DNA of 64,000 nucleotides from the sequence record MT682711.1. One strand, given 5' to 3'. The stretch is from Escherichia phage vB_EcoM_FB. The notes under the pieces were generated by a model that worked only from the letters and a program-made list of their open reading frames with translations, had not been told where the DNA came from and searched no databases. Both the position numbers and the translations under genes were made by a program. Positions 14,506 to 53,763 of the stretch are shown here, piece by piece (the first letter of the stretch is position 1; every line of letters starts with the position of its first letter).

Positions 14506-15027
14506 TTAATAACCTCGGTCCTGGCGAGCAAAGTTCTCGGCATTTTTCAGGTAATACAGTTTAAAGATTTCTTCAGCAGTCAGTCCAAGACCTTGGAACA
14601 TATTCAGAACAAAGTGCAGAATATCAATCATTTCGAATTTAATTTCGAGCTGGTCTTCAGGAGACAAATCGTTAATCAGGGTTTCACGACGTTCAGCATG
14701 TTGAGCTTTCCAAGGCTTCCATACAGCGCTCGCATCTTTTTCGCCATTGCTCATGCCACCAAGAGAAGTCAGAAGTTCGCGGAATTCATCATCAATATAA
14801 TCTTTCTGATTGCGCAACCAATCAACAACTTCACCTGCAGTAGCCAAGTCATCAGGATGACGGTTATATTCAGGTTTATCTTTAGCCAAACGGACTTGTA
14901 ATGATTTCTGCATATCAAGCATAACCTGCAGAGGGTCTTTATCTTCGTGAATCAGAGCATTAAAATAAGCTTCCTCAGCTTTATCAACACCAGCAATAAG
15001 TTGTGAGCATTCGTTAAAGTGTGCCAT
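14506..15027 (-). CDS. 56: dCTP pyrophosphatase (MazG-like)
   Basis: 173 aa; N-terminus MAHFNECSQLIAGVDKA resembles T4 gp56 as recalled; map position. Confidence 0.8.
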   Translation of the reverse strand: MAHFNECSQLIAGVDKAEEAYFNALIHEDKDPLQVMLDMQKSLQVRLAKDKPEYNRHPDDLATAGEVVDWLRNQKDYIDDEFRELLTSLGGMSNGEKDASAVWKPWKAQHAERRETLINDLSPEDQLEIKFEMIDILHFVLNMFQGLGLTAEEIFKLYYLKNAENFARQDRGY

Positions 15028-21708: not shown

Positions 21709-22602
21709 TTAAAGGACCACGTCCTCATAACTTGGCATTTCGTGCTCAGAATGGATATGGGCACCGAAATAAATGAATTCAGCCAGACCAGGATGGAATA
21801 CTAAACCGGGATTCTCATGATAAATGATATGTGGTCTTGATTTCAGAATCTGATAATATTCAACCTTACTCGGTTTGAATTTAATAATCTCTACATCAGG
21901 ACGATAGTCTTCGCGCTTAAATGAATCGTTCGGGTCGGTGATGTAAAGACGAGCACCTTCAGCCGCAGCTTGGTCTACAACTCTTTCGAATTGATAGCAT
22001 TTATCTGAGATACGGAACGGATGGAAAATACCATCAATTTTAATAGGCGCTAGACCTTCAGAGTAACGCTCAATTACTGCAGGATTAATTACCTTTTGGT
22101 CTACAAAAATCTTATCAGAGGACGCACCTCGTGACACCAGGACGTCTTTCTGGCATTGATTCAGGACTGTAGTATAAATCGAACGTTCAACTGAAGACAC
22201 GTCGATATCAATGAACTCATCGATATAATAACGAGGAACTTCAGGGTCCATTGTAATGTTAAAGTTGAATTGTACAGTCTGGGTACCATCATAACCTGTG
22301 ATATCGGTTATTAATCCTGAGCAGTCATAGTATTCGATTAACGAATCAACAACGAACTCATTTTCAGACCAAAAATGTTTACGGGTTTCATAAGCATTTT
22401 CTTTATACCAAAGCGGTACAAAATTCAGTTCAGGAAACAATTCAATACATTCTTTGATATCGCTCGAATTTCTAGGATAAGCCAGATAATCACCTGGGCG
22501 AGCACGGTTTAAATGGGGTTGAAAATTACCGTCCTTAAGGACGGCATATTCACCTGTTTCGTAACTACGCATACTGAAAATAGGAACGATAAACAGACTC
22601 AT
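21709..22602 (-). CDS. hypothetical protein at the beta-gt position; candidate DNA sugar transferase
   Basis: 297 aa with no resemblance to T4 beta-glucosyltransferase as recalled; function assigned by position only. Confidence 0.4.
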   Translation of the reverse strand: MSLFIVPIFSMRSYETGEYAVLKDGNFQPHLNRARPGDYLAYPRNSSDIKECIELFPELNFVPLWYKENAYETRKHFWSENEFVVDSLIEYYDCSGLITDITGYDGTQTVQFNFNITMDPEVPRYYIDEFIDIDVSSVERSIYTTVLNQCQKDVLVSRGASSDKIFVDQKVINPAVIERYSEGLAPIKIDGIFHPFRISDKCYQFERVVDQAAAEGARLYITDPNDSFKREDYRPDVEIIKFKPSKVEYYQILKSRPHIIYHENPGLVFHPGLAEFIYFGAHIHSEHEMPSYEDVVL

Positions 22603-23297
22603 TTCAGGAATCCTCGAACGTAGTCAAAATCACGTTCAAACACGTGTGCACTAACCATAGTATGGGAATACGTACCCAGACCAACACCACACTGTTCAGC
22701 AATAAAGGCCATCAGTTTACCCTGCAGATAGAAATCCAGCTGCATAACGATAGCACAGTTCTGTGAACGCATATGAGTGTGTGCATACAGACGTCCATCA
22801 CGAATATAATATGTTACCGAATCGGTACATGGATATTCTAGGGATTCGTCAGAATCAAGGAGGGCTTGGTCTTGTTCTTGGAGAATCTGGAACACAACTC
22901 TTCGCGAGTTAGGCTTTTCTTTAAGCTCTTTAAGTAGGGCTGGGAGTTGGGCCACAATTCGAGGTCCATAGAAAGTGTTGAAGTTTGCAGGCAATACGTC
23001 ACTTTTCGGCTTATCAATGAACTTAGCAACATTAGGGTATTCCTTAAATGCTTCGGCGGCGTCAGTACCACCAGAAATCATAAATTTCCAAAAGGATTCG
23101 GCATAATCATAGTTGATACGATTAATACGAGGGTCGGTGAATTTATAGGTGCTTGCATCCAGTACTTCTACCGAAGCAGAACCAATTTCATAACAACGGC
23201 CGATACGGGAATCAACTGCAAACTGTGGAGCTTCCAGGATTTCTTCGTTCATTTGCTTAAACGCATTTTCAAAACTAACAGCGGTAATGTGTTTCAT
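22599..23297 (-). CDS. 42: dCMP hydroxymethylase (thymidylate synthase family)
   Basis: 232 aa; catalytic-Cys region PCTDSVTYYIRDGRL...HMRSQN resembles the T4 gp42 active-site region as recalled. Confidence 0.7.
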   Translation of the reverse strand: MKHITAVSFENAFKQMNEEILEAPQFAVDSRIGRCYEIGSASVEVLDASTYKFTDPRINRINYDYAESFWKFMISGGTDAAEAFKEYPNVAKFIDKPKSDVLPANFNTFYGPRIVAQLPALLKELKEKPNSRRVVFQILQEQDQALLDSDESLEYPCTDSVTYYIRDGRLYAHTHMRSQNCAIVMQLDFYLQGKLMAFIAEQCGVGLGTYSHTMVSAHVFERDFDYVRGFLK

Positions 23298-23830
23298 TTA
23301 TTCACCTTATTTTCAATATATTCATTCAGTCGTTTTAATTCTACCATATCAACATTAAGCAAATTATTATGGCCGTCGTGATTTAAGATTTTAAACACGT
23401 TTTCAAAACATGTTTCATACTGCCGGATAGTTAGGTTGAACTCATCTTTGGTTAATTTAATAAGGTCATCTTCGAAGTCTTCATCTAATGGATTACGGGT
23501 TAAAATAACCTCAATAATACTGAATTCAGATTTAAACCCTTTCCAATCTTCCAGTTCTACATAAGGGTCCATTTCACCACGAAGGAATCCCGAGTAAACA
23601 ATATTACTTGGATAACCACGGTCAAGGATGTAAACGAAATTAGGGTCTAAAAACTTATATAAGGTTTCGACTAAAGCCTTATCATTATCAGTCCCTATTG
23701 AAATGCACTTACCATTAATCTTTTTAGGAAAATCAATAAGACGATATTTCTTATCAGACAAAAGTGATTCAATTAAAGTAGACTTCCCGGAATTATCCGG
23801 GCCGTCGATAACAATGATTTTTGGTTTCAC
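23294..23830 (-). CDS. P-loop nucleotide kinase-like protein
   Basis: 178 aa; Walker A IDGPDNSGKST near N-terminus. Confidence 0.5.
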   Translation of the reverse strand: MKPKIIVIDGPDNSGKSTLIESLLSDKKYRLIDFPKKINGKCISIGTDNDKALVETLYKFLDPNFVYILDRGYPSNIVYSGFLRGEMDPYVELEDWKGFKSEFSIIEVILTRNPLDEDFEDDLIKLTKDEFNLTIRQYETCFENVFKILNHDGHNNLLNVDMVELKRLNEYIENKVNK

Positions 23831-24201
23831 GGATGATATGCCTTATAGGTTTCAAGAGTTCCTTCACGAACCATTTCTTTAAAGTGGTCAGGACGGATTG
23901 CTCGGTCATCGATGATAAAAGTATAACTCGGCTTATGTGTAAGCAGATTGTGATATTTCAATCCAATCTTTTCAAGGTTCTTAACTAATGCAGGAACTAC
24001 TTCAACCAAGATTCGACCTGGGCCGCATGAAGTCATACCACGGGCAGTGAACAAGGTAATCTCGTACCCTTCATCATAAAGCTTATTAATCATGGACACC
24101 ATTTCGGTGTCCGGTTTAAAGTTTTCGTAATCACGGTCATCTTGCCAGTGAGTAATGGTATTATCGATATCAAAACACAGATGCATTAAATTTTCTTCCA
24201 T
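23827..24201 (-). CDS. HAD-superfamily phosphatase
   Basis: 124 aa; motif I FDIDNT (DxDxT), Thr in FTAR, Lys in HKP, DD in FIIDDRA. Confidence 0.6.
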   Translation of the reverse strand: MEENLMHLCFDIDNTITHWQDDRDYENFKPDTEMVSMINKLYDEGYEITLFTARGMTSCGPGRILVEVVPALVKNLEKIGLKYHNLLTHKPSYTFIIDDRAIRPDHFKEMVREGTLETYKAYHP

Positions 24202-25859
24202 TGTTTGTGGAGTTCGGTAGAACCTGTAGGTTTATATTTTACACCAGTTTCCTGGTCAAGCAAAACCCACTTATCAGGACAACGAGTGATAATTTGAGCC
24301 GTGATAGGGTCACGAACTTCATCGACAAATTCACCTGTAATAAGCTTACGCTTACGAGGATGCCGCTTCAGCAGCACACTCAGTTGGTATAGACCGTTGT
24401 AATAAGCACCTAGAGCTTTCAGAGGATTATTCTTAAAGTAACCTGCCAGTGCCATCCAAATAACGGCAATCCAGAGCTTGTGCTTAAATGTACACATCGG
24501 AATATCATCTAAAGGCATAACCTTTTCAATATCAACGAATACACGAGTTCCGTTACGAGTTAAGCCACCCCATAGAGGGTCAGAGTTAAATTTGTCATAA
24601 CCATCGATAGAATAAAGCACCTTAGCTTCATCATAAATCGCAGGGCCTTTAGAACTATTACCAAAATAACCACGTGGGTCGATGATTTTAATATTACCTT
24701 CGTCCGACAACATAATATTACTGTAGTGCGGGTCGCCATGAATAAGTTGGTACGGTTCTTTATGTTCAGACAGAATTTCTAAGGCGTGACGAAGAAGTTT
24801 TTCTGGGTCGCCTACCTTGAAGTCGTTAACATGGGTAATACCCTGTGGAGCAAAGCCTTCAATCAATCCGGCAATAGAAGCATTACGAATAAGGACCTTG
24901 TCCAATACTTCTTTCTTAACATCAGAATACCATTGCTCATCGGACGGATTATCGATAGTTCCACCGAATGAACGTAATGCACTAATGACCTTATAAACCA
25001 TGAGTACTTTAGTTTCTTTAGACATAAACCGATAGGCATCTGCCATAGTACGACCAAAGATACGTTCCATTTTAATGAATTCACCTGGAGCAAAGTCTAC
25101 AATGCTCGGAACGAATTCAGAATCAATAGAATTATACCAATTGATTTCTTTAGATTGGATTTCTTTACCTAATTCGTTGGTAGGTACTTTAATAGCCAGA
25201 TTCTCAGTGAACTCTAATTTATTAAATTCACGGTTAATTTCGGATTCTTCATGGGCCTTAGCCAGTTTCAATTTGTCACCGACATCAACTACAAAGTCCA
25301 GCTTACGTTCAGTCAAATAGACCATTGAATCCAGGTTATCAGCAAGGTCTTCACCATAATTAGAACGGTCGAAACCTGTCCAATTAGCCACCTGATACAA
25401 GCCAACTACGCCACCACCGGTACCAATTTCACGCAAGTACGGTTCTTCAAATGTAAAACGACAGTCAGTCCCATAGGTATAACAGTAGTCGTTATCCCAC
25501 TCAACTTTATGACCTTCAGGAATAATATCACACCAGTTAAACAAGACATTGTGCCCAATGATATCTTCGGCAATGCAATCGATAGCATGAGCCGAACCAT
25601 TGGCAACATCAACGTTACGAATAGTGAATTTAGGCTTATCACTATTAATCATGTTAATGGATTTAATATAGCCTTTAACGAGGTCGTTAAATTTGCTGTG
25701 AATAACCAGAATAATTTCATCTGATTGATTACTATACAAATCATACAAATGTTTTAATACAGTATGTTGTTTGTAGTTAACCAGTACCTTCGGGATTTCG
25801 TTGGTAATTGGATACAACCGTGAGCCAAGACCCGCGCCTAAAATAACAACCTTTTTCAT
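24186..25859 (-). CDS. bifunctional sugar kinase / sugar-1-phosphate nucleotidyltransferase
   Basis: N-terminal ILGAGLGSRL...PK.L nucleotidyltransferase signature; C-terminal HGDPHYSNIM and IIDPRGY kinase motifs (APH/choline-kinase type); start moved to ATG at 25859 (MKKVVILGAG) with GAGGAA SD. Confidence 0.6.
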   Translation of the reverse strand: MKKVVILGAGLGSRLYPITNEIPKVLVNYKQHTVLKHLYDLYSNQSDEIILVIHSKFNDLVKGYIKSINMINSDKPKFTIRNVDVANGSAHAIDCIAEDIIGHNVLFNWCDIIPEGHKVEWDNDYCYTYGTDCRFTFEEPYLREIGTGGGVVGLYQVANWTGFDRSNYGEDLADNLDSMVYLTERKLDFVVDVGDKLKLAKAHEESEINREFNKLEFTENLAIKVPTNELGKEIQSKEINWYNSIDSEFVPSIVDFAPGEFIKMERIFGRTMADAYRFMSKETKVLMVYKVISALRSFGGTIDNPSDEQWYSDVKKEVLDKVLIRNASIAGLIEGFAPQGITHVNDFKVGDPEKLLRHALEILSEHKEPYQLIHGDPHYSNIMLSDEGNIKIIDPRGYFGNSSKGPAIYDEAKVLYSIDGYDKFNSDPLWGGLTRNGTRVFVDIEKVMPLDDIPMCTFKHKLWIAVIWMALAGYFKNNPLKALGAYYNGLYQLSVLLKRHPRKRKLITGEFVDEVRDPITAQIITRCPDKWVLLDQETGVKYKPTGSTELHKQWKKI

Positions 25860-25919: not shown

Positions 25920-26420
25920 TTAAATCTTATCTTTACCGATTTCAATACACTGTTCTATTGCCGCTGGTGCTTTGGTCTTGAGCTTATCGATTTGTTTCTT
26001 ATAATCACGAGCTTTACCGAAGCTCTCGGTTTCGAGCATTTCGTAATAACGAGCCTCGTGGATGGAAATCTGTAGATTGATATGGTTTACGCACATCGCA
26101 TACAGTTTCTGCTTTTTGTACAAATCATCTTGACGCTTCATTTCTGCCTGGTGTTTGGCTAGTACCGCTTCACGCTTGGACTCTTGTTCACGTTGGAATT
26201 CGATTTCTTGTTGAGCATATTTTGCACAGTTATTACCGCATTGATTATTAGCTCGGGTGTACACAAGTCCAGAACCTGCACGGAATTTCATTTCGCCATC
26301 GAATTGTTTCTGTTCAGCTGCGATACGAGCTTTACCAACTTCATCGGCCGAAACTGTATCACCATATTGGACCGCGCAACCTGATAGGAGCATACTCATT
26401 GCGATAATTAACTTTTTCAT
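25920..26420 (-). CDS. putative lipoprotein
   Basis: 166 aa; signal peptide with lipobox LSGC. Confidence 0.55.
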   Translation of the reverse strand: MKKLIIAMSMLLSGCAVQYGDTVSADEVGKARIAAEQKQFDGEMKFRAGSGLVYTRANNQCGNNCAKYAQQEIEFQREQESKREAVLAKHQAEMKRQDDLYKKQKLYAMCVNHINLQISIHEARYYEMLETESFGKARDYKKQIDKLKTKAPAAIEQCIEIGKDKI

Positions 26421-26860: not shown

Positions 26861-29572
26861 TTAAAAGTCGAACATATCAAATAATGTTGCTTTTTTCTCG
26901 TAGTCGATTTTAGCAGACTCAGTAAAACCGGTCAGAGGTTTGATAAAGGTCTTTTGGAACAGTACGTTGTAGTCCATCCAACGGAGGACTTGGTCACGAA
27001 TCTGAACCGGAAGTTCAATACCTGACGGCCATGCCATACAAGCTTCACCAAACGGGTTGCCTTCTTTAAGTGGCAGTACATATACCTTTTCACCATCAAC
27101 GATACGAGGCATAGTCAAATCACCTGCAGAAGCACGCATGTAAGCTAAGCAACCTTTGATGTGGTATGGACATTTAGAACCCGGGAATCCACCTTCATTA
27201 TATTTCTCGATGTTGTTAGCACTGGATACTGCTGCAATGCTTACATAGTTGAGTTCGTTAAATTCCTTATTAAACTGTTTGAAATATTCTTGCAAAGATG
27301 CCTCGCCTTCCTGAAGCATACGACGGATACATTCCTTCAGAGCTTTCTGAACTGCTTTAGGTGTACTTGATTTCTGAGTTTCAAGGCCCATGATTTTCAA
27401 GTGCGGTTCGGCATAACGAGTACCTTCCATGTCCCAAACGTTCAGTGCATAACGTTTCTTGCCTGTCCAGAATCCACCAAGACCTTTAGAACCAAGTGGA
27501 GGACCTGCGATAGCTTCTCGGTCCATGAACATCAAGTGTTGTTTGTTGTTCATGTATTCGCACATCTCACGGAAGCCTGCATCAATAGCTGGTTCCATAC
27601 GTTCACGTGCAAATTTATCTAAGAAGTCTACCCAGTGGTTAGTATCACGGAATTTATCTTCGCCTACTTTATTGATGATTGCATCTGCCTTAACATAAAT
27701 GGAGTCAGTATCACCGTAGAGCACGAACTTCTGGTTTTCAGTCTTACACACGCTATTCAGATATTCGTTAACCTTACGTTCAATCCATTGGAGGGCCATT
27801 TGACCAAACAATGTGATTGCAGTTGCGTTCCTGAGGTCATAGTAACGGAACCATACGTTACCAAGTGCACCATAAAGGGAGTTGATAAGCAACTTACGGT
27901 TAATCTGAGCCGTGTTACCTGCAACTTCAGTGAGCTCGGCTTTCTTCAACATTTCTCTTAAAGAAGGCGCTGACAGTGCTTTAATCTGGGCTTTGATTTC
28001 GTCAGAGAAGTCAAAACGATAATCGATATCCAGTGGACTATCAACCGAGAGATTAGGATTTTCCAATGCTTCTTTAATTAACTCACCATTACGCTGAGCT
28101 GCAAGCATGTAACCTTTATGTTCTTTACGCTGCAAGAATACCTTGGTGATTTCTGTCGGAATCACACCTTCACGGTCTTTATAATACATCATGCCGTTAG
28201 GAGAGCAACTGTAGGTGTCGCTAGGACGCGGAGCTGTTCCGGCAATATATTCATGTATCGGTGCGTTAGCGAATGTCCCTGCGATGGTCTCTGGGCTTAT
28301 ATTCACTTGTCGAATGATACTCGGGTACAGAGATGTAAGGTCGAAACTCATTACATATTTGTAAGCGTTAGGAATCGGTTCCTTAACGAAAGCACCAGGA
28401 TAAGGTTGGACCACGTGCGAACGAGCTTGTGGAATTACCTTGCCTTGTTCTTTAAGGCTATTAAAGATAATAGCGTCCCAAGTCTTAATTGGACTAAACA
28501 CCGACTGAATCTGCATCTTGGCATAATAACCCATGTCCAAACTCAGAAGAATGAACTGACGCTTCATATCAATCTGCACTACACGATATACGTCGATAAT
28601 GTTATAGGAAATATATCGTTGGTGGTTCGTCTCACGTAACTTGGAGATTGGGCCATCATATTTCAACTTACCTACTTTCAATTCATATTCAGAAACATAA
28701 TCCAGAGAATAAGAAGGCTGGTTGGTAAAGCTGAATTTTTTATACAGGTCGATATAATCCAGAACAGAGATACCGAACAATGTAATGATTTCACGAGCAC
28801 CGTACATGTTCTCGATAACTTTAACACGAGTTTTACGATGTGGGCTTAATCGCTTAGCAGTGTTCTCACCGAACAGATTTTTCAGACGGTTATAAACGTA
28901 TGGTACGTCAAACGACTCAACGTTCCATCCAGTCAAAATCACAGGAGTTTTCTGTTGCCAGAAATTCAAGTACTCAAGCATCATTTCTTCTTCAGAATTA
29001 AACGGAAGATAAACGATTTTGTCAATGATTTCTTGTGGAACTTCGTCACCGCCTTCGTCTTGGAGTTTCTCAGCGATTTTAATCGACCACTCTTCGACAG
29101 TACCATAAGGCGAAACTAAAAGGTCGAATACATAGAATTTATCGTCAATCGAGTCGTAGTGGGTAATGGCATCGATAGGATGTTTAGCCTGAGCTGGTTC
29201 AGGGAATCCATCAGGAGATGTTACCTCGATGTCGAAGTTAGCAATACGAATCTTAGAAGAATCATATTTGATTTCTTTACGATAGGTATCAGACAAATAG
29301 GCTAATTTATAGTCGTCCATACCCAGGGCTTCGAGACCCATATCATCCATACGTTTCATCCATTGGGATGCATCACGCATAGAATCGAATTCTTTCTTAA
29401 CACAACCCTTACCATAGATATCAATGTATTTTACGGCTTGCTCTGGATTAGCATGCATAAACATTGTAGGCTTGTATGGAACTTCACGACTACGTTCGTT
29501 ACCATTTTTATCGATGTAACGTTCGAGAATATTATCACCGATTTGTTCGACTGTCAAATAGAATTCTTGCAT
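26861..29572 (-). CDS. 43: DNA polymerase (family B)
   Basis: N-terminus MQEFYLTVEQIGDNILERYID resembles T4 gp43 as recalled; exo motifs FDIEV and YNIIDV; YGDTDS polymerase motif; start trimmed from the TTG-extended track ORF. Confidence 0.9.
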   Translation of the reverse strand: MQEFYLTVEQIGDNILERYIDKNGNERSREVPYKPTMFMHANPEQAVKYIDIYGKGCVKKEFDSMRDASQWMKRMDDMGLEALGMDDYKLAYLSDTYRKEIKYDSSKIRIANFDIEVTSPDGFPEPAQAKHPIDAITHYDSIDDKFYVFDLLVSPYGTVEEWSIKIAEKLQDEGGDEVPQEIIDKIVYLPFNSEEEMMLEYLNFWQQKTPVILTGWNVESFDVPYVYNRLKNLFGENTAKRLSPHRKTRVKVIENMYGAREIITLFGISVLDYIDLYKKFSFTNQPSYSLDYVSEYELKVGKLKYDGPISKLRETNHQRYISYNIIDVYRVVQIDMKRQFILLSLDMGYYAKMQIQSVFSPIKTWDAIIFNSLKEQGKVIPQARSHVVQPYPGAFVKEPIPNAYKYVMSFDLTSLYPSIIRQVNISPETIAGTFANAPIHEYIAGTAPRPSDTYSCSPNGMMYYKDREGVIPTEITKVFLQRKEHKGYMLAAQRNGELIKEALENPNLSVDSPLDIDYRFDFSDEIKAQIKALSAPSLREMLKKAELTEVAGNTAQINRKLLINSLYGALGNVWFRYYDLRNATAITLFGQMALQWIERKVNEYLNSVCKTENQKFVLYGDTDSIYVKADAIINKVGEDKFRDTNHWVDFLDKFARERMEPAIDAGFREMCEYMNNKQHLMFMDREAIAGPPLGSKGLGGFWTGKKRYALNVWDMEGTRYAEPHLKIMGLETQKSSTPKAVQKALKECIRRMLQEGEASLQEYFKQFNKEFNELNYVSIAAVSSANNIEKYNEGGFPGSKCPYHIKGCLAYMRASAGDLTMPRIVDGEKVYVLPLKEGNPFGEACMAWPSGIELPVQIRDQVLRWMDYNVLFQKTFIKPLTGFTESAKIDYEKKATLFDMFDF

Positions 29573-29628
29573 TTCATTTCCTTTATAGACGAGTGATTGT
29601 CTTTTGTTTGTTGATGAATCATTATACT

Positions 29629-29650
29629 CCAAAAGGGACCGAAGTCCCTT
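29629..29650 (-). terminator. intrinsic terminator (UUCG hairpin) upstream of gene 43 leader
   Basis: aagggac-cgaa-gtccctt at 29633-29650 with A-rich plus flank. Confidence 0.55.
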
Positions 29651-33023: not shown

Positions 33024-33218
33024 TTAATCAAAGTATTCATAAACGAACCAGGCAGGATTCCTGTTCGACATGATTCTATCATACTCTGACTTAAAAGCAT
33101 TTCGGAGATAATCTTCAGTAACAAGATGTTCGTCTCCAGAGAAGTTATTAACTAAAACATACCGCTTTAGTTCAGGAACGGCCAACAAATGCTGGCCTGT
33201 TATAAAATTAGAAGCCAT
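33024..33218 (-). CDS. hypothetical protein
   Basis: 64 aa ORF. Confidence 0.45.
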   Translation of the reverse strand: MASNFITGQHLLAVPELKRYVLVNNFSGDEHLVTEDYLRNAFKSEYDRIMSNRNPAWFVYEYFD

Positions 33219-33225
33219 ATAAATA
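33218..33225 (+). promoter_or_regulatory. late promoter TATAAATA on plus strand
   Basis: tataaata at 33218-33225, 37 nt upstream of the HNH gene ATG. Confidence 0.55.
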
Positions 33226-33261
33226 TCTTTATCGGTCGCTGTATCAAATAAGGATTTGATA

Positions 33262-33978
33262 ATGAATTATAAATCAATATACGAAAAGCTTATTCAACGA
33301 GCAGTTAATAGAAATTTAACTACCTATAAAGAACGTCATCACATTATACCACAATGTATGGGTGGAACGGATGACGCTTTAAACTTGGTAGACTTAACAC
33401 CTGAAGAACATTACTTGGCTCATCAGTTGTTAGTTAAAATCCATCCAGATAATGTATCACTAGTCTATGCGGCAAGAATGATGACAATTAGCTCACCAAA
33501 TGCTGATAGGTCTAAAAATAAATTATTTGGATGGCTTCGTCGTAAGAATTCAGAAGTCCAAAAGGATAAAGAATTCTCGGAAGAAACCAGAAAGAAAATG
33601 TCGATTTCTGCTTTAAAAAAGCCTAGAGTTACCTGTCCACACTGTGGTAAAACCGGTTTGGTAGGCAATATGAACAGATGGCATTTTGATAATTGTCCTA
33701 AAGGCCCTAATAAAGTGGTTCATACTATACCAAAAGAACAAAAAGATAAAATATCAAACACTTTTAAGAATAAAGTATTTGAATTGGTTAATTGCCAGTT
33801 TTGTGGTATAGAAGGTAAGAAGAGCGTTATAGTAACCCATCAATATTTTTGCAAATTAAACCCTAACCGTAAAAAGAAAGAGGACCCTAAAATAAAGTGT
33901 CCTCATTGCGATAAAGTAGGAATACCTGCCAATATGAAACGTTGGCATTTTGATAATTGCAAATTAAAGCCTCAATAA
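33262..33978 (+). mobile_element. free-standing HNH homing endonuclease gene with C-terminal zinc-ribbon repeats
   Basis: ERHHIIPQCMGG...NLV.L...EHYLAH HNH motif; three repeats of CPHC.K.G...NM.RWHFDNC; only plus-strand gene in the replication cluster, inserted between 46 and the rpbA-position gene. Confidence 0.7.
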
Positions 33979-35887: not shown

Positions 35888-36125
35888 CCTTGATGCATGA
35901 TTCAGCCATATGAATTAATGTTTCTGGAGTATCATCTACCATTACATTAAAGCTAAATTCCACAGCCCAATCAGTAGCAACATAAACTTTAATAAGCTCG
36001 TTGGTATCGCGAGTGCTCACGGCTTCAAACCAGAACTTAATGATATTCGTTTGGTTATCGTCATCAATAACGATGCAGTCGTGTTCTAGTTCAAGGCCTG
36101 ATTTTTTGAATTCATCTAAAGTCAT
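35862..36125 (-). CDS. hypothetical protein
   Basis: 87 aa ORF between 47 and 46. Confidence 0.5.
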   Translation of the reverse strand: MTLDEFKKSGLELEHDCIVIDDDNQTNIIKFWFEAVSTRDTNELIKVYVATDWAVEFSFNVMVDDTPETLIHMAESCIKDAYNDENV

Positions 36126-37144
36126 CGTGTAACCTCATTATAAAGTTGTGCGGCCATAGTCTTAAGGGCTTTAACATCGTCTTCAGTGTGGCCATCAGGA
36201 AGGGCATCGATATAATCATACATCATATCCAAGAGGGACTTAACTTCATCTTCCTCTTCAGAATCATCGATATCAACACTGTTATCTACCTTAGACACAA
36301 TACGTAAAGAGTGAACAACCTTTTCAAGTTCAGATTCGAACTTGGTAAGCCCGTCATCAATTTTATCGACTATAACACGAACCGCAATATTTGTAAAATC
36401 TTTGTAATCGATAGTCGCATTCGGATAATGAATCTTACGATGCCAACAAGTTTCATTGATGATGAAATCCATTTTATGGGTTTCTGTATCGAAAATCCAG
36501 AAGCCACGAGGGTCGTTCTCATCACCTGCAGTCAGGGTCCATGGCGTACCAATATACTTGACGTTTGCTGCATCAGAAATGGTGTGGAAGTGACCAGACC
36601 ATACTTGCTTATACTTCTTAAGGAAATCAGGTTCTAAACCATGTGATTTCATTCCTTTATAGAAATAGAAACCATTTAATTCCCAGTGGCCAATACAGAA
36701 ATCGGCAGTAGTATTTTTGATATGGTCCATGATATCGGTCGTGTTTTCTTCACACATCCATGGAATCAAATCAATTTCTGTACCATCAAAATTAACCGTA
36801 GTAGGTTTCTCAATAACCTTGATATGGTCGTATTTACCCAGAACTTCAGAAGCAGCGTTCGGAGTCAATGTGTTTTTGTAGTGCATATCATGGTTACCAA
36901 CGACCGTATACATGGTAATGCCGTTGGCTTTAAGCAAATCGGAGATTTCGCGAGCGAATTCCATACACTTATGGGTAATTGCTTTACGAACGTCAAAGAT
37001 ATCACCGTATTGAATCCATACAGTAATGCCATTTGCTTTAGAATAATTAATAGCGTCTTGGATACCTTGACGTTGGATATTTTGTACCCACACATCATCG
37101 GCCTTCACTCCAAGGTGCCAGTCACCTGTGTTTAATATTTTCAT
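36122..37144 (-). CDS. 47: recombination nuclease (Mre11/SbcD-like)
   Basis: Phosphoesterase motifs GDWHLG, GDIFD, GNHD; start set to ATG at 37144 (MKILNTGDW), giving 340 aa versus 339 in T4. Confidence 0.9.
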   Translation of the reverse strand: MKILNTGDWHLGVKADDVWVQNIQRQGIQDAINYSKANGITVWIQYGDIFDVRKAITHKCMEFAREISDLLKANGITMYTVVGNHDMHYKNTLTPNAASEVLGKYDHIKVIEKPTTVNFDGTEIDLIPWMCEENTTDIMDHIKNTTADFCIGHWELNGFYFYKGMKSHGLEPDFLKKYKQVWSGHFHTISDAANVKYIGTPWTLTAGDENDPRGFWIFDTETHKMDFIINETCWHRKIHYPNATIDYKDFTNIAVRVIVDKIDDGLTKFESELEKVVHSLRIVSKVDNSVDIDDSEEEDEVKSLLDMMYDYIDALPDGHTEDDVKALKTMAAQLYNEVTR

Positions 37145-37284
37145 AAGCCAAGCGCCGTTATTGCAATGCAAAATAAAATTATTGAAATGAACCCGTCAGG
37201 AGTGGAAAAGAATCCTATCCAACAAGCTCGTGTGAATGTGTAGAATGCCATGAATAACACGACATATCCTAAAAGTAGTTCCAT
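37141..37284 (-). CDS. small membrane protein
   Basis: 47 aa hydrophobic ORF translated by hand; TGAGGAGAA SD; ATGA overlap with gp47 start. Confidence 0.45.
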   Translation of the reverse strand: MELLLGYVVLFMAFYTFTRACWIGFFSTPDGFISIILFCIAITALGL

Positions 37285-37325
37285 ATGTTCTCCTCAGTTG
37301 GTTCATTTTATCATCCAAATATAAA

Positions 37326-37350
37326 GCAAAAAAGGAGCCTAAGCTCCTTT
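37326..37350 (-). terminator. intrinsic terminator (hairpin plus U tract)
   Basis: aaaggagc-ctaa-gctccttt at 37331-37350, A5 on plus flank. Confidence 0.6.
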
Positions 37351-37512
37351 ACCAACTAATACACCGTACAGAGGTTCGTGATTAGACCTGAACTTGATAG
37401 GCTTATAGGTAATAGTACCTTCATTTTCTGCTTTAATACGAGCGGCTTCAAATTGAAGTATCATCTCATTTTTGTCAGATTTAATCTTATCAAAATCCAT
37501 CGAATTCGTCAT
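37339..37512 (-). CDS. hypothetical small protein
   Basis: 57 aa ORF translated by hand; AAGAGG SD; stop lies in terminator hairpin. Confidence 0.4.
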   Translation of the reverse strand: MTNSMDFDKIKSDKNEMILQFEAARIKAENEGTITYKPIKFRSNHEPLYGVLVGKGA

Positions 37513-37570
37513 TCATACAACCTCTTAAACTTTTTCGTATTCGTCTTTCATTAGCCGCCTGTCCACGTTA

Positions 37571-37771
37571 TCATCGTTGCCACCATTTCTTAAGTTGATG
37601 AGAATCTACCCAAACCTTGGCTACGGGCTCAATCCGAAAAATTCCATCGGAATACTGGCCGACCATTTTATATTCGGTTTCGGACTGCTTAATACAGATA
37701 TTACCGTATGAGCGAAGTCTAAAGGCGGCTCCAATAAGAAGCCGTTTAAAGGGTTTATTTACTAGGGCCAT
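37571..37771 (-). CDS. hypothetical protein
   Basis: 66 aa ORF. Confidence 0.45.
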   Translation of the reverse strand: MALVNKPFKRLLIGAAFRLRSYGNICIKQSETEYKMVGQYSDGIFRIEPVAKVWVDSHQLKKWWQR

Positions 37772-38066
37772 TGACGATTTCCCAAATTTGTTTGCGGGTA
37801 GATTCCCACATCAATTGAACAAGTTCATCAGTAACAGGTTGACGGTAAATACCACGTAATTTAATTAAAGCGTACTTATATGCTTCAAAGTTGTTTTCAA
37901 GTACAGCGCCTTGGGCATGGAGATTTAAACGACGGATTTCACGAGCATTCTTCTTAAGAATCTTAGCCGCTTGAGAATTAGCTTCTTTAATATTGTGCTC
38001 TTCTAAACGTTGCTGGGCTTCTTCAATTTGCTCATCAGTCAATTGAGAAATGTCATGGCTTTGCAT
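37755..38066 (-). CDS. hypothetical protein
   Basis: 103 aa ORF. Confidence 0.5.
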   Translation of the reverse strand: MQSHDISQLTDEQIEEAQQRLEEHNIKEANSQAAKILKKNAREIRRLNLHAQGAVLENNFEAYKYALIKLRGIYRQPVTDELVQLMWESTRKQIWEIVNGPSK

Positions 38067-38067
38067 A

Positions 38068-38334
38068 TTAATCCTTTGGAGTCAATTCAATAGTGAAGTA
38101 GAAATTAGCGTTCTCAACATGATAACGATAATCTACGTTATTGTCAGGAGAAGTGAATTCAATATTCCTGACGTTAAGTGGGTCAATATCAATAGGAAGG
38201 CCTTTAACATCCCGTAATATCAATTTAATAAAATAAGGGAGTGCTTCGAAGTCTTCCATTCCATCTAAAAGTGGAGTGATATTAATCTGATGTTCCATAT
38301 AAAAAATCCAGTTCACCAACTTTAGGTTCGGCAC
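38068..38334 (-). CDS. hypothetical protein
   Basis: 88 aa ORF. Confidence 0.5.
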
Positions 38335-38839
38335 TCTTATCAGACCCTGGTGCTTTAGTTAAAGAGGTTTCATACTGAGTCATTTTGTCGTAGATATCTT
38401 GGATAAAGGTTTCATCTGCAATACCTACCATGTCGTCATCATTACTGTCATAGACATTATGGACGAAGTAGCTATATTTCTTTGCCATTTCTTTACGTTC
38501 TTTTTTGATACGCTGAACGAAGGCATTAAAACAAGCCATAGTGATATATGCATGTGGGTTGTCGTATTTTGTTTCGTCGAAATTGTGAAGACCTTTAATC
38601 GAAGCTTCGATTCCATCAGCTATCATTTCCTGCCGCCAAGATTGGGTATATCCTGAGAAGTTGAAACGCTTGCTGAGGCCTTCTGCTATAAGCATAATAG
38701 CCAATCCTATAGTATCATTTTGTCTAATGATTTTATTAGGGTCGGTGTTAGCATATAATTCCTGCTTCCAACTTGTAATAGCTTTAAGAAGCTCCTTGTT
38801 ATTTACATAATTATTTTTTGTTAACTTCACCTGATTCAT
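38282..38839 (-). CDS. 55: late-transcription sigma factor
   Basis: NYVNNKELL...[28 protein letters not shown]...[22 protein letters not shown] matches T4 gp55 as recalled; start set to ATG at 38839. Confidence 0.9.
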
Positions 38840-39506
38840 AAGCCCTCTTAAACCTATCAACTAGTGGTCTAAAATTATTTATCGTATATGGATAACCTAG
38901 TTCACAGCATTTGCGCCAGAATTTAGAATAACTAGGGCGTCCTTCCTTAATCCAAAGTTCATGGAACTCATCATATAATACATATGTTGGATTTTTAGCA
39001 AACTTGGAATAATTCTCTATAGAGTAATATTCTTTGTTCTTTTTACTTTTGGCCTCTCTAACTTCAGGATTAGCATTATACTCTTTATGGATTCGACGCA
39101 TCATTTCTCGATGCTCTTCATTTTCCCAAGACTTTTTAATAGAGTTGGAAACCCGCTCTTTATATTCAGGGTCCTGCCAGCGTTCGGTAACTTCTTTAGA
39201 CTGTTCTTCAAGTCTTTCCGGTGTCGGAGGAGCATAACCACCTATACCACCAGGTTTCATATTGACGCAGTTAGTTATTTCGGACATGGCATTTTCTACC
39301 AAAAGCTCTTCAAATTCAAAAGCAAGCTCACTTGTCTCAAAATAACATAAGGCCTCTATATTAAAAGAGCATTTCCCTGAGGCCTTAGCATCTTCTACGA
39401 ATTTGCCACTACCGACATACCCGTCATCTATAAATCCGGTGTGTTTACCGAAATAGTAATAAGTATCATTTTCGGATTTTATAGTGGTCATATAACAATA
39501 GTGCAT
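38811..39506 (-). mobile_element. GIY-YIG homing endonuclease gene (Seg-like)
   Basis: 231 aa; N-terminal YYYFGKH...GYVGSG GIY-YIG motif; basic C-terminal tail; stop overlaps gp55 start. Confidence 0.6.
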
Positions 39507-39563
39507 AATGATTAATCTTTAATTTAAATAATGAATCTATTATATACCAATTGGCTTAAAGCA

Positions 39564-39827
39564 TCAACGGAGTAAGCAATAAGCCTGAAATACGGTTTCA
39601 AGGATTTGTGTGAACTCGGAATAAGAAATTGTATCAGTACATCCATGTTCAGACATATATCCACAAAATTCTTTAAAAAGACCTGGATATTCGCGATGGT
39701 TGTATTTGGAAATATGAGACTTCCATACTAAAGAAGTCTCACCACAAACAAACTCAACATCCATACAGTTATCTATTAAGAAAAATCCGAGACCTTCGTA
39801 GGCGAGGGTGGTGGATATGGGTTTCAT
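39564..39827 (-). CDS. hypothetical protein
   Basis: 87 aa ORF. Confidence 0.5.
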   Translation of the reverse strand: MKPISTTLAYEGLGFFLIDNCMDVEFVCGETSLVWKSHISKYNHREYPGLFKEFCGYMSEHGCTDTISYSEFTQILETVFQAYCLLR

Positions 39828-42557: not shown

Positions 42558-43631
42558 TTAAGATTTCAAATAAGTTATATAACTTTCCAACCATTCAATC
42601 ATTTCTGATTTTTCGGTGGCAGTCATAGGATTAACTATATCCTTAAAACTGTTAAGCATTACTTGGGACGTAACTTTTGTTTTTTCGGATTTTACCAATT
42701 CAATAGAGCTAAGTTTTTTAATATGCTCTTCTTTGCTTTCGACTACTAATTTAATAGCTCTTCCGTCTTTAATAGCTTTATTAGCCTGTCCACGGGTCAT
42801 ACCATAAAACTCTTCTAACTCAGAATTGGATAAAAATTTTGTGCCTGAAGAAACATCTTGGAATTTATAACGTTGACGAGAAATATCAGGCGGAAGGCCC
42901 CAGCGGCCTTTAATAAGGTCGAGGGTTCCTTGAAGAAGCCTGGTTAGATGGTTGCTACTTAAATCATTATTACGAGCAAACTCGTTTTGATTTAGAACTT
43001 CCACTGCTTTATTTTCTTCATAGTCCCATATAGTAAATTTAGAGCAATTATAGGTAACAGAATGTTTTTCTGTTCTAGAACGGCCTAATTGCCACCCAGA
43101 TTTAATATACTCAGCAACTTCATCGGGTTTAACATACTTAGTTTTCTGGCCGATTTTGTACATCATGGGCCAGGAAACGTGTTCGTTTCCTTTATCAAAT
43201 TCCATCCATCTTGCAATATCATCTTCGGATAAATCGTCAAAGCAGTTAGGGTTGAAATGACCGCCAATTTGTTTGTTGAGCCACATAGGGTCTCGTAAAA
43301 CATCATTGGCTAATTGCATTTCCATTTCGGCCATAAGGGTTTTACCCCAAGTAGGATACCACCCTACAATAAGGTACTCTTTAGGGCTTATACCCTTTTC
43401 TATCATTGCGTTTACTTCATTAGATGATGATGTATAGGTTTTCCAATCAGATTCCTCAAATCCTTTTTTAGGACCACGCTTAAATGTGCATGGCGCGGCT
43501 TTGATTCGTTTCCAAATCTTTTTAGCGCCAACATATTTTTTACCGTCTTCAAAAGTGATTACGTAGACAAACCCGATATGGTTTTTAATATCGGTTTCTT
43601 CAAATACCGCCCAATGACCAAAATCTTGCAT
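42558..43631 (-). mobile_element. GIY-YIG homing endonuclease gene (Seg-like)
   Basis: 357 aa; N-terminal GFVYVITFEDGKKYVGAKK GIY-YIG motif; long basic C-terminal region. Confidence 0.55.
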
Positions 43632-49400: not shown

Positions 49401-50396
49401 TTATTTCAGAAGTGTAACTTCGGCAATTTCAGACCAATCATTAGAATCGGTAGCAATGAAATCAGCCAAATAGAGGGCGGTACGCAATGAAACATTACGC
49501 AAACGTGATACATTAGCCTTCATCCATGAGAGTGCCTGGTAAGTCTGAGCGTCAGTCAGACCACGTTTCTGCATCATATCTGTAGACAGAATAACATCTT
49601 CAACACGAACCATAATCTCTTCGTTAGAGTGAACGCCTAAGTCAAGATAAACGGAACGAGATACTAAAGCCTGAAGGTGTGGAGCAAGTTTAGTACCACG
49701 TTCTAATTCACGGTCAATATCAACGTTAGTGATGAATACGATGGTGCCTTCATACTCAAATTCTTTATCGATATTTTTATCATCAAGATAAGAACTTGAA
49801 GTGCTCCAGCATACCTTACGTTTCTCACCGGTGTCCAATGCCGCTTTCAGAAGGTTCAGGATATCCATATCAGAGAATACATCAACATCATCAATAAGAA
49901 GAACACTATTAGGGCCGCGGTTATTCCAAAGCTGCTCGTAAAGACCGATTCCACTAATCTTTCCGTTGATTGATTTATATTCGATAGTTTCATTTTCGTG
50001 GGCATTCTGTAATGCTTTATCCAATGAATATGTTTTACCAATACCTGCTGCACCAGAGATGATAAGGGAACGAATTTTACCATCGATGATTCCATTAGTC
50101 ATCATATTCATTACTTTAAAACGTTTGTTGATGCGGTGTTTCATTTCATCCTGGGATTCGGTTACGACTGCAGGGGTTTCAACACCTTCAGTCTCGATAT
50201 CAGATTTGAACACCCATACACCACGCTCTACGCCATCAATCTGAACAAAGACCTTACCATCGCCGAGGTGGGCTTCTGATTCATGAATTTTATTAGGGAA
50301 CCAGGTTTTACCTGAACTCATGAACGTACCAGAGATTTCATTACCGCGGTAGATGCCTTTGTTGATTTTGATAGTTAACATTTTATTATCCTTCAC
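49401..50396 (-). CDS. AAA-type ATPase
   Basis: 331 aa; Walker A GAAGIGKT, Walker B LLIDDVD. Confidence 0.6.
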   Translation of the reverse strand: MKDNKMLTIKINKGIYRGNEISGTFMSSGKTWFPNKIHESEAHLGDGKVFVQIDGVERGVWVFKSDIETEGVETPAVVTESQDEMKHRINKRFKVMNMMTNGIIDGKIRSLIISGAAGIGKTYSLDKALQNAHENETIEYKSINGKISGIGLYEQLWNNRGPNSVLLIDDVDVFSDMDILNLLKAALDTGEKRKVCWSTSSSYLDDKNIDKEFEYEGTIVFITNVDIDRELERGTKLAPHLQALVSRSVYLDLGVHSNEEIMVRVEDVILSTDMMQKRGLTDAQTYQALSWMKANVSRLRNVSLRTALYLADFIATDSNDWSEIAEVTLLK

Positions 50397-50411
50397 TCAT
50401 TTGTTTTGATA

Positions 50412-50445
50412 GGTCTATCTTAACACGTTTAATCAGGTTGTAAAC
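50412..50445 (-). promoter_or_regulatory. early promoter (GTTTAC, TTAAGAT, AGACCTATCAAAAC)
   Basis: gtaaac 50440-50445; rc 50417-50422 TAAGAT. Confidence 0.5.
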
Positions 50446-50463
50446 AATTTTTTGCACTAAACC

Positions 50464-50488
50464 CAAAAAAGGAACCCGAAGGTTCCTA
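50464..50488 (-). terminator. intrinsic terminator (UUCG hairpin plus U6)
   Basis: aggaacc-cgaa-ggttcct at 50470-50487, A6 at 50464-50470. Confidence 0.7.
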
Positions 50489-50681
50489 AATTGCACTCCA
50501 AAAATTATGGAATCTGATATAGTTTATAGCCAAGTTAACACAGCGTCTTATCTGCTTAGACGTGGGCTTACACACATACTTAAAATTGATTCGCCTACCG
50601 GTTTCTCTACAAACTACTTCAAGATACCAACGGCAGGTTTTATGAGGTCTTCCGTATGACAAGAAGACGTTGACTTCTTCT

Positions 50682-52141: not shown

Positions 52142-52151
52142 AATATTTTCC

Positions 52152-52706: not shown

Positions 52707-52718
52707 TTTAATTTCCTC

Positions 52719-53009: not shown

Positions 53010-53025
53010 GGTTCAAGATAGTAAA

Positions 53026-53465: not shown

Positions 53466-53469
53466 ATTA

Positions 53470-53706: not shown

Positions 53707-53725
53707 TCTGTTCTCCTCATTAGTT

Positions 53726-53763
53726 GATAGGTCTATAGTATCATGTTCCTAGAGGATGTAAAC
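53726..53763 (-). promoter_or_regulatory. early promoter (GTTTAC, TACTAT)
   Basis: gtaaac 53758-53763; atagta 53735-53740. Confidence 0.55.

What the first reader, a model, noticed from the sequence alone, without database searches (positions are those of the whole stretch)
37145..38281. No alpha-glucosyltransferase gene in the 47-55 interval
In T4 a ~400 aa alpha-gt gene lies between 47.1 and 55. Here the interval holds only four small ORFs (57 to 103 aa) and a terminator. This is independent support that the phage does not use T4-type glucosylation.
Basis: partly seen in the sequence, partly recalled or inferred. Interest (0 to 1): 0.4.

Follow-up and report, generated by a model that had tools for sequence, protein, structure and literature searches.

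The report
No alpha-glucosyltransferase gene; arabinose-type DNA modification instead
This T4-like (JS98-type) phage has no alpha- or beta-glucosyltransferase gene and instead carries the RB69-type genes for sugar-coated 5-hydroxycytosine, a pattern already published for this phage group, so the finding is correct but ordinary.

Summary
Between gene 47 and gene 55 (37145-38281) no frame has an ORF above 103 aa. The interval holds five small minus-strand genes, orthologues of T4 47.1, a-gt.2, a-gt.3, a-gt.4 and a-gt.5, and one terminator hairpin. T4's a-gt and mobB (about 2 kb) are missing exactly at the 47.1/a-gt.2 junction.

The window is the first 64 kb of a Dhakavirus (JS98-like) genome, so it covers both T4 glucosyltransferase loci. 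tblastn with T4 a-gt, T4 b-gt and T2-type ba-gt finds nothing. The rest of the related LHE83 genome is also negative.

At the b-gt position lies the RB69-type module:
- a thymidylate-synthase homologue, 79% identical to RB69 gp48, with the D169N signature of 5-hydroxy-dCMP synthases;
- a 297-aa GT-B-fold protein, 69% and 63% identical to the two annotated halves of RB69 gp46:47;
- a Tmk-like kinase, a HAD phosphatase, and a fused kinase/nucleotidyltransferase.

None of this is new. Petrov 2010 noted that JS98 lacks glucosyltransferases, and Lee 2026 places Dhakaviruses in the arabinosylation group. No nucleoside chemistry for a Dhakavirus turned up in the papers I searched.

The parts
36122..37144 (-). 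Gene 47 (SbcD/Mre11-like recombination nuclease subunit); left border of the interval.
   Evidence: 66% identical to RB69 gp47 over 341 aa. Pfam Metallophos. Annotated as gene 47 in JS98 and LHE83.
37141..37284 (-). 47.1 orthologue, a 47-aa predicted membrane protein.
   Evidence: 78% identical to T4 gp47.1, E 6e-26.
37305..37328 (-). Match to the T4 MotA-type middle promoter (TGCTTTA, 11-nt spacer, TAAAAT) in front of 47.1, 47 and 46.
   Evidence: Pattern search: 10 matches in the window against 2.2 expected, with 0 of 100 shuffles reaching 10. The element is conserved in RB69, JS98 and T4 junctions. Function is inferred, not shown.
37331..37350 (-). Intrinsic-terminator-like hairpin (8-bp stem, UUAG loop, U run) at the end of a-gt.2.
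   Evidence: the local fold is -16 kcal/mol, z -1.65, so weak as statistics. The hairpin is conserved in position in RB69, JS98 and T4.
37339..37512 (-). a-gt.2 orthologue, 57 aa, DUF5486.
   Evidence: 57% identical to T4 a-gt.2, E 3e-22. Pfam DUF5486, E 2e-19.
37571..37771 (-). a-gt.3 orthologue, 66 aa.
   Evidence: 46% identical to T4 a-gt.3, E 5e-19.
37755..38066 (-). a-gt.4 orthologue, 103 aa, DUF2654.
   Evidence: 41% identical to T4 a-gt.4, E 5e-25. Pfam DUF2654, E 4e-23.
38068..38298 (-). a-gt.5 orthologue, 76 aa from its ATG, DUF5491.
   Evidence: 41% identical to T4 a-gt.5, E 2e-18. Pfam DUF5491, E 1.8e-14.
38282..38839 (-). Gene 55 (late sigma factor); right border of the interval.
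   Evidence: 82% identical to RB69 gp55. Annotated as gene 55 in JS98 and LHE83.
21709..22602 (-). 297-aa GT-B-fold protein in the position T4 gives to b-gt. Candidate first DNA arabinosyltransferase (orthologue of RB69 gp46:47).
22599..23297 (-). Thymidylate-synthase homologue, predicted 5-hydroxy-dCMP synthase. It is not a T4-type dCMP hydroxymethylase.
   Evidence: 79% identical to RB69 gp48 but only 25% to T4 gp42. Aligned residues: C146, L143E, N177D and D169N, the published signature; T4 gp42 keeps D169 (PMC13326640).
23294..23830 (-). Thymidylate-kinase-like nucleotide kinase (RB69 gp45 homologue).
   Evidence: 37% identical to RB69 gp45, E 2e-35. PHROG 761, thymidylate kinase.
23827..24201 (-). 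HAD-type phosphatase (RB69 gp51 / HY126 AfhF homologue).
   Evidence: 62% identical to RB69 gp51, E 6e-64. A DxDxT motif is visible in the sequence.
24186..25859 (-). Fused sugar-1-phosphate nucleotidyltransferase (N-terminal) and APH-type kinase (C-terminal). Homologue of RB69 gp52:53 / HY126 AfhE; predicted maker of the activated pentose.
   Evidence: Pfam NTP_transferase (E 2.4e-8) and APH (E 7e-6). 44% and 41% identical to RB69 gp53 and gp52.
14506..15027 (-). Gene 56 dCTPase, which removes dCTP and supplies dCMP.
   Evidence: 92% identical to RB69 gp56 over 173 aa.

Best explanation
The window comes from a JS98-type (Dhakavirus) T4 relative. Its 47-55 interval is the short form of this region: 47.1, one terminator-plus-middle-promoter spacer, then a-gt.2 to a-gt.5.

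The a-gt gene, with its mobB homing endonuclease, is a separate cassette. In T4 it sits between two copies of that same spacer module. Here, as in JS98 and RB69, there is only one copy and no cassette.

The phage does not need a-gt because it modifies cytosine by a different route:
1. gp56 turns dCTP into dCMP.
2. A thymidylate-synthase homologue with the D169N signature hydroxylates dCMP to 5-hydroxy-dCMP.
3. Kinases raise it to the triphosphate, which is built into DNA.
4. A fused kinase/nucleotidyltransferase and a HAD phosphatase make an activated pentose, most likely UDP-arabinose from host arabinose 5-phosphate.
5. The single 297-aa GT-B enzyme, in the place where T4 has b-gt, transfers it to the 5-hydroxyl in DNA.

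What is shown here: the gene content, the homologies, the fold and the signature residues. What is inferred: the chemistry, taken from RB69, DLP3 and HY126. The cassette gain or loss by recombination between the repeated spacer modules is also inferred.
For: Identity of the phage:
- 91-99% DNA identity to LHE83, WG01, QL01, IME08 and JS98, all Dhakavirus.

The interval:
- The five small ORFs are the T4 47.1 and a-gt.2-a-gt.5 orthologues.
- The JS98 annotation shows the same layout, and RB69 lacks a-gt in the same place, with a-gt.2-a-gt.5 directly next to gene 47.
- T4 has a-gt and mobB between 47.1 and a-gt.2.
- Alignment of the junctions shows one hairpin/TGCTTTA/TAAAAT module in the window, JS98 and RB69, and two in T4 on either side of a-gt and mobB.

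Absence of T4-type enzymes:
- No a-gt, b-gt or ba-gt hit in the window or in the rest of LHE83.
- T4 a-gt homologues in 50,697 phage records fall in three identity bands: T4-like at 90% or more, a Klebsiella-phage group near 66%, and 10 distant records. No Dhakavirus appeared among the 40 rows sampled across the ranking.

The alternative pathway:
- RB69 homologues are present for gp48 (79%), gp46:47 (69% and 63%), gp51 (62%), gp52:53 (41-44%), gp45 (37%) and gp56 (92%).
- The ThyA homologue carries D169N, N177D, L143E and C146.
- The 297-aa protein has a GT-B fold.

Literature:
- Petrov 2010 (PMC2993671) states that RB69 and JS98 have genes 42 and 56 but no glucosyltransferases.
- Lee 2026 (PMC13326640) shows RB69 gp48 makes 5hodCMP and lists Dhakaviruses among phages with the syntenic cluster.
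Against: - No chemical analysis of a Dhakavirus genome turned up in the paper searches I ran.
- RB69 gp55 (arabinose-5-phosphate isomerase), gp50 and gp3 (second arabinosyltransferase) have no homologue in the window or in the rest of LHE83. The pathway is therefore a reduced version and would depend on the host's own isomerases (KdsD and GutQ, from my own knowledge).
- The sugar-activating enzyme is only 41-44% identical to RB69's, so the sugar is not certain.
- A paper on Shewanella phage Thanatos reports that its 300-aa GT-fold protein, TH1_063, acted as a UDP-xylose pyrophosphorylase in vitro (PMC12838424). I take TH1_063 to be the counterpart of the 297-aa protein from its size, fold and position only; I ran no sequence comparison. 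If so, this clashes with the transferase role.
- Only 64 kb of this phage was seen.
Confidence: 0.85

Rival explanations
1. The phage makes hydroxymethylcytosine as T4 does and leaves it unglycosylated. It would rely on anti-restriction proteins instead of sugars. This was the open possibility for JS98 and RB69 in 2010.
For: Petrov 2010 (PMC2993671) listed a gene 42 allele in JS98-type phages and left this option open. T4 gp42 does match the 232-aa ORF (E 2e-9).
Against: The match to T4 gp42 is only 25%, against 79% to RB69 gp48, which was shown to make 5hodCMP (PMC13326640). The D169N signature is present. A GT-B enzyme and a sugar-activation pair lie in the same operon-like block.
Confidence: 0.04
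2. The a-gt gene exists but has moved outside the 64-kb window, so the empty 47-55 interval says nothing about the modification.
For: About 106 kb of this phage was not available. T4-type genomes do shuffle accessory genes.
Against: The parts of the LHE83 genome outside the window (95-99% identical to the window where they overlap) have no a-gt, b-gt or ba-gt hit. Glucosyl transfer by a-gt needs hmC, which the D169N enzyme is not expected to make. Published surveys found a-gt only in T-even-type phages (PMC2993671).
Confidence: 0.02
3. The phage glycosylates 5-hydroxycytosine with a sugar other than D-arabinose, for example another pentose. It lacks the phage arabinose-5-phosphate isomerase, and its sugar-activating enzyme is diverged.
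For: No homologue of RB69 gp55 was found. The fused enzyme is only 41-44% identical to RB69 gp52:53. Lee 2026 shows that 5hoC carries different sugars in different phages. The Thanatos paper describes the sugar only as a pentose of unknown configuration and found UDP-xylose-forming activity (PMC12838424).
Against: E. coli makes arabinose 5-phosphate itself for KDO synthesis (my own knowledge), so a phage isomerase is dispensable. The transferase is 69% and 63% identical to the halves of RB69 gp46:47, and the HAD enzyme is 62% identical to gp51. Lee 2026 groups Dhakaviruses with the arabinosylating phages and describes Thanatos, which has a single transferase, as mono-arabinosylated.
Confidence: 0.09

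Closest known systems
JS98 / JS10 / IME08 / LHE83 (genus Dhakavirus), 47-55 interval
   Same: Same gene order: 47, 47.1, a-gt.2, a-gt.3, a-gt.4, a-gt.5, 55. Same spacer sequence, with no a-gt. DNA identity is 91-99%.
   Different: This phage, like LHE83, has an extra 231-aa homing-endonuclease-like ORF just upstream of gene 55. JS98, WG01 and MX01 lack it.
RB69 (Mosigvirus), arabinosylated 5-hydroxycytosine system (Thomas 2018, PMC6024577; Lee 2026, PMC13326640)
   Same: The 47-55 interval likewise has no a-gt. Homologues of gp45, gp46:47, gp48, gp51, gp52:53 and gp56 lie between gene 43 and uvsX. The D169N signature is present.
   Different: No homologue of gp3 (second arabinosyltransferase), gp50 or gp55 (arabinose-5-phosphate isomerase). 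The gene order inside the block differs: the Tmk-like gene lies between the synthase and the HAD gene rather than next to uvsX. With one transferase, a mono- rather than di-arabinosyl base is expected (inference).
T4 alpha-glucosyltransferase locus (47.1 | a-gt | mobB | a-gt.2)
   Same: Flanking genes are orthologous on both sides. The hairpin plus MotA-box module is the same.
   Different: T4 has about 2 kb more: a-gt (400 aa) and mobB, bounded by two copies of the module. The window has one copy and neither gene.
Shewanella phage Thanatos cluster (PMC12838424)
   Same: A ThyA homologue, a ~300-aa GT-fold protein and a ~560-aa fused nucleotidyltransferase/kinase. One transferase only. The paper never uses the word 'isomerase'.
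   Different: Different host and phage lineage. I did not compare the sequences directly. Its authors assign the 300-aa protein a sugar-nucleotide pyrophosphorylase activity.

Membership tests
T4-type DNA alpha-glucosyltransferase (a-gt) | A ~400-aa ORF with sequence homology to T4 a-gt, located between 47.1 and a-gt.2. | tested here: not met
   The longest ORF in the interval is 103 aa. The best tblastn hit for T4 a-gt is E 0.019 over 36 aa, inside the HAD gene. No AGT Pfam hit in the cluster proteins or in the uncharacterised ORFs of 190 aa or more.
T4-type DNA beta-glucosyltransferase (b-gt) | A ~350-aa ORF homologous to T4 b-gt, next to gene 42. | tested here: not met
   The best tblastn hit is E 0.25 over 39 aa, with none in the rest of LHE83. 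The slot next to the gene-42 homologue holds a 297-aa protein with no sequence match to b-gt (blastp E 3.7).
[quoted passage not shown] | A ~280-aa ORF homologous to RB14/T2 ba-gt, next to gene 42. | tested here: not met
   The best tblastn hits are E 0.034 (35 aa) and 0.056 (73 aa), inside unrelated genes.
T4-type dCMP hydroxymethylase (gp42) | A thymidylate-synthase fold with Asp at the positions of E. coli ThyA N177 and D169. | tested here: not met
   N177D is present, but position 169 is Asn, as in RB69 gp48; T4 gp42 has Asp there. Only 25% identity to T4 gp42.
5-hydroxycytosine arabinosylation system (RB69 / DLP3 / HY126 type) | A 5hodCMP synthase: a ThyA homologue with C146, L143E, N177D and D169N. 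| tested here: met
   79% identical to RB69 gp48. All four residues match. The signature is defined in PMC13326640.
5-hydroxycytosine arabinosylation system (RB69 / DLP3 / HY126 type) | A first DNA arabinosyltransferase with GT-B fold, syntenic with the synthase. | tested here: met
5-hydroxycytosine arabinosylation system (RB69 / DLP3 / HY126 type) | A fused sugar kinase / NDP-sugar pyrophosphorylase (AfhE-like) together with a HAD phosphatase (AfhF-like). | tested here: met
   Pfam NTP_transferase and APH. 41-44% identical to RB69 gp52:53 and 62% to gp51.
5-hydroxycytosine arabinosylation system (RB69 / DLP3 / HY126 type) | A phage-encoded arabinose-5-phosphate isomerase (RB69 gp55 / DLP3 gp83). 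| tested here: not met
   No tblastn hit at E of 1 or below in the window or the rest of LHE83. I do not know whether this gene is obligatory for the family. I believe the host has KdsD and GutQ (my own knowledge).
5-hydroxycytosine arabinosylation system (RB69 / DLP3 / HY126 type) | Arabinosyl-5-hydroxy-deoxycytidine replaces dC in virion DNA. | not testable with these tools
   This needs LC-MS or NMR of nucleosides. No such data for a Dhakavirus were found in the paper searches.

The most novel reading that the evidence does not exclude
Dhakaviruses carry a stripped-down version of the RB69 module: one transferase, no phage isomerase, no gp50, and a sugar-activating enzyme only about 42% identical. 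No nucleoside chemistry for them turned up in my searches. The evidence does not exclude that they carry a cytosine derivative not yet described. It could be a mono-pentosyl-5-hydroxycytosine with a sugar or linkage different from RB69's, which would give a distinct pattern of sensitivity to defence nucleases that recognise modified DNA.
Probability: 0.1. Interest if true: 0.45.

Novelty: already known. Interest (0 to 1): 0.12.

Why it matters
The finding matters little as a discovery. It matters for annotation and for practical use of such phages.

Records of JS98-like phages still label these genes 'hypothetical protein'. LHE83, for example, leaves the whole modification block unnamed. Earlier comparative work also lists the thymidylate-synthase homologue as an allele of T4 gene 42, the dCMP hydroxymethylase. 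Reading the empty a-gt site together with the 21.7-25.9 kb block gives a better prediction: the DNA is probably 5-hydroxycytosine carrying a pentose.

That prediction bears on which restriction enzymes, CRISPR nucleases, type IV systems and sequencing chemistries will work on this phage. It also identifies an untested genus for anyone mapping the chemistry of 5hoC glycosylation.

Tried and rejected
- **Wrong coordinate mapping.** I first mapped the window onto LHE83 by a fixed offset taken from the 36-39.6 kb match, and so expected rIIB at the window start. This was wrong. The window ends do not match LHE83 at that offset. The window is a mosaic relative, 95-96% identical to QL01 and LHE83 over 1-24 kb and about 92% over 40-64 kb. 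It starts at rIIA.
- **Weak a-gt hits from an over-sensitive tblastn run.** The first, E 0.019, lies at 23953-24060, inside the HAD gene. The second, E 0.047, lies at 49872-50189, inside a 331-aa AAA-type ATPase ORF. I rejected both as chance, and the second disappears under default settings.
- **Checked for a second arabinosyltransferase between rIIA.1 and gene 39, where RB69 keeps gp3.** Nothing was found; QL01 annotates only two small ORFs there.
- **Pfam on the 297-aa and HAD proteins gave nothing.** Their assignment rests on RB69 homology, PHROGs and the predicted fold.
- **Whole-genome search workaround.** Loci reached the script machine only one per script call. I re-fetched pieces of LHE83 to get round this.
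- **No T4 late promoter (TATAAATA) lies in the interval.**

Full report
**What the window is.** Megablast of 36000-39600 against 50,697 phage records gives 99.1% identity over the full length to Escherichia phage LHE83. It gives 91-98% to WG01, MX01, QL01, IME08, JS98 and JS10, all genus Dhakavirus. Other parts of the window match the same group less closely. Positions 1-24000 are 96.4% identical to QL01 and 95.4% to LHE83. Positions 40000-64000 reach about 92% at best. The source is therefore a mosaic Dhakavirus that is not itself in the collection. The matches start at position 1 to 35 of QL01, WG01 and IME08. The window is thus the first 64 kb of the genome in the T4 convention, from rIIA onwards. 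It covers both places where T4 keeps glucosyltransferase genes. Nearly all genes are on the minus strand.

**The observation.** Gene 47 ends its reading frame at 37144 and gene 55 stops at 38282, so the finding's coordinates are exactly the space between them. In all six frames the longest ORF inside is 103 aa. The interval holds five genes, not four:
- 47.1: 37141-37284, 47 aa
- a-gt.2: 37339-37512, 57 aa
- a-gt.3: 37571-37771, 66 aa
- a-gt.4: 37755-38066, 103 aa
- a-gt.5: 38068-38298, 76 aa from its ATG

Each is the orthologue of the T4 gene of that name, at 78, 57, 46, 41 and 41% identity, with E-values from 6e-26 to 2e-18. Three belong to Pfam families of unknown function made of these phage proteins. 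JS98 is annotated with exactly this order. In T4 the order is 47, 47.1, a-gt (400 aa), mobB, a-gt.2-a-gt.5, 55. What is missing here is a-gt and its neighbouring homing endonuclease, about 2 kb, at the 47.1/a-gt.2 junction.

**The junction.** The 54-nt spacer (37285-37338) and the end of a-gt.2 carry three elements. The first is an 8-bp G+C-rich hairpin followed by a U run (37331-37350). The a-gt.2 stop codon lies in its loop. The second, directly after it, is a match to the T4 middle-promoter pattern: TGCTTTA, an 11-nt spacer, then TAAAAT (37305-37328). The third is a GAGGAG ribosome-binding site and the 47.1 start. The promoter pattern occurs 10 times in the window against 2.2 expected, and no shuffle out of 100 reached 10.

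Aligning the junctions shows where this hairpin-plus-promoter module occurs. It is present once in the window, in JS98 and in RB69. It is present twice in T4: once after a-gt.2 in front of mobB, and once after a-gt in front of 47.1. T4's a-gt and mobB therefore sit as a cassette between two copies of a short regulatory module. I infer that the cassette was gained or lost by recombination at these repeats. From memory, this resembles the 'promoter stem-loop' shuffling described for T4-type phages by Arbiol and co-workers (2010). I did not check that paper.

**Is a glucosyltransferase hiding elsewhere?** I ran tblastn with T4 a-gt, T4 b-gt and the T2-type ba-gt of RB14 against two targets. The first was the window. 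The second was the parts of LHE83 that the window does not cover: 1-50000, 49500-60500 and 123001-170464. The best hits were E 0.02-0.06 over 35-73 residues, inside unrelated genes. Pfam scans of the modification-cluster proteins and of the otherwise uncharacterised ORFs of 190 aa or more found no glycosyltransferase family. The remaining large ORFs are T4/RB69 core genes, identified by homology to RB69 or from the annotation of related phages.

In the whole phage collection, T4 a-gt has homologues in 657 records. They fall in three identity bands: 504 at 80% or more, almost all above 90% and T4-like; 143 near 66%, a Klebsiella-phage group; and 10 distant. No Dhakavirus appeared among the 40 rows sampled across the ranking.

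**What the phage has instead.** Between gene 43 (26861-29632) and uvsX (20459-21631), T4 has imm.1, imm, 42, b-gt and segA. The window has, in order:
- an Imm homologue;
- a 166-aa lipoprotein-like ORF;
- a fused nucleotidyltransferase/kinase (24186-25859; Pfam NTP_transferase and APH);
- a 124-aa HAD-type phosphatase;
- a 178-aa thymidylate-kinase-like protein;
- a 232-aa thymidylate-synthase homologue;
- a 297-aa protein with no Pfam family.

These are homologues of RB69 gp52:53 (41-44%), gp51 (62%), gp45 (37%), gp48 (79%) and gp46:47 (69% and 63%). The gp56 dCTPase is 92% identical to RB69's.

Lee and co-workers (2026, PMC13326640) showed that RB69 DNA carries arabinose joined directly to 5-hydroxycytosine. 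They showed that gp48 makes 5-hydroxy-dCMP with oxygen from O2 and a flavin. They proposed that Asn at the position of E. coli ThyA D169 marks such enzymes. In my alignment the window protein has Cys146, Glu143, Asp177 and Asn169, as RB69 gp48 does, whereas T4 gp42 keeps Asp169. It is only 25% identical to T4 gp42.

**How this version differs from RB69.** RB69 gp3 (second arabinosyltransferase), gp50 and gp55 (arabinose-5-phosphate isomerase) have no homologue in the window or in the rest of LHE83. With one transferase I expect a single sugar per base. Lee 2026 states this for Shewanella phage Thanatos, which also has one transferase. Arabinose 5-phosphate would have to come from the host, which makes it for KDO synthesis (my own knowledge).

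Two points keep the chemistry uncertain. First, no nucleoside analysis of a Dhakavirus turned up in the library. Second, the Thanatos authors report that their 300-aa GT-fold protein made UDP-xylose in vitro (PMC12838424). I take that protein to be the counterpart of the 297-aa protein from its size, fold and position only. If so, the result does not fit a pure transferase role.

**Comparison with what is known.** That JS98 and RB69 have alleles of genes 42 and 56 but no glucosyltransferase genes was stated by Petrov and co-workers in 2010. Their table assigns a-gt to 'T-even type phages only' (PMC2993671). Thomas 2018 already named IME08 gp43 as a homologue of the RB69 sugar-activating enzyme (PMC6024577). 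Lee 2026 lists Dhakaviruses among the genera that share the syntenic arabinosylation cluster. The finding is a correct rediscovery.

**Verdict.** Novelty: already known. Interest: low. The only open point of some value is the untested chemistry of the reduced Dhakavirus module.

Noticed in passing
window 1340-1342 (minus strand), within rIIA 50-2254: rIIA is interrupted by an in-frame TAG. QL01 has CAG (Gln) at this codon, and the surrounding 120 nt are identical. This is a single C-to-T change giving an rIIA amber mutant, or a sequencing error.
   Followed up: partly
window 33256-33978 (+), with TATAAATA at 33218-33225 (+): A 240-aa homing-endonuclease ORF lies on the opposite strand, between 45.2 and gene 46 (PHROG 655, E 2e-66). 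It is preceded by a T4 late-promoter match. LHE83 and JS98 have nothing annotated at this place.
   Followed up: partly
window 38811-39506 (-): A 231-aa homing-endonuclease-like ORF (PHROG 314, E 6.5e-20; no Pfam hit) lies immediately upstream of gene 55 and overlaps its start. It is present in LHE83 but absent from JS98, WG01 and MX01, which is why those cover only 74-80% of the 3.6-kb query.
   Followed up: partly
window 42558-43631 (-): A 357-aa SegE-like GIY-YIG endonuclease (Pfam E 4.8e-34). With the two ORFs above, this makes at least three homing-endonuclease genes in 64 kb. JS98 and JS10 were reported to have none (PMC2993671, Table 5).
   Followed up: no
window 37282-37356; T4 L003 36582-36632 and 38677-38738; RB69 L005 39989-40068: A ~45-nt module (hairpin, T run, TGCTTTA, 11-12 nt, TAAAAT) occurs once in the window, JS98 and RB69. 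It occurs twice in T4, where the two copies bracket a-gt and mobB. This suggests cassette gain or loss at repeated regulatory modules.
   Followed up: partly
window 25920-26420 (-): A 166-aa ORF with a lipoprotein-like N-terminus (LLSGC) lies between imm and the sugar-activation gene, roughly where RB69 has its arabinose-5-phosphate isomerase. It belongs to PHROG 1754, function unknown.
   Followed up: no
window 39500-64000: No ORF of 400 aa or more lies in this stretch. The nrdG-mobC-nrdD block that T4 has between 55.8 and gene 49 is absent, as in the JS98 annotation, where 55.8 is followed directly by 49.
   Followed up: no
window 21709-22602 (literature conflict): The ~300-aa GT-fold family is called the first arabinosyltransferase by Lee 2026. 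The Thanatos study reports UDP-xylose pyrophosphorylase activity for its apparent member, TH1_063; I did not check its homology to the window protein by sequence. All database homologues of the window protein are still named 'hypothetical protein'.
   Followed up: no
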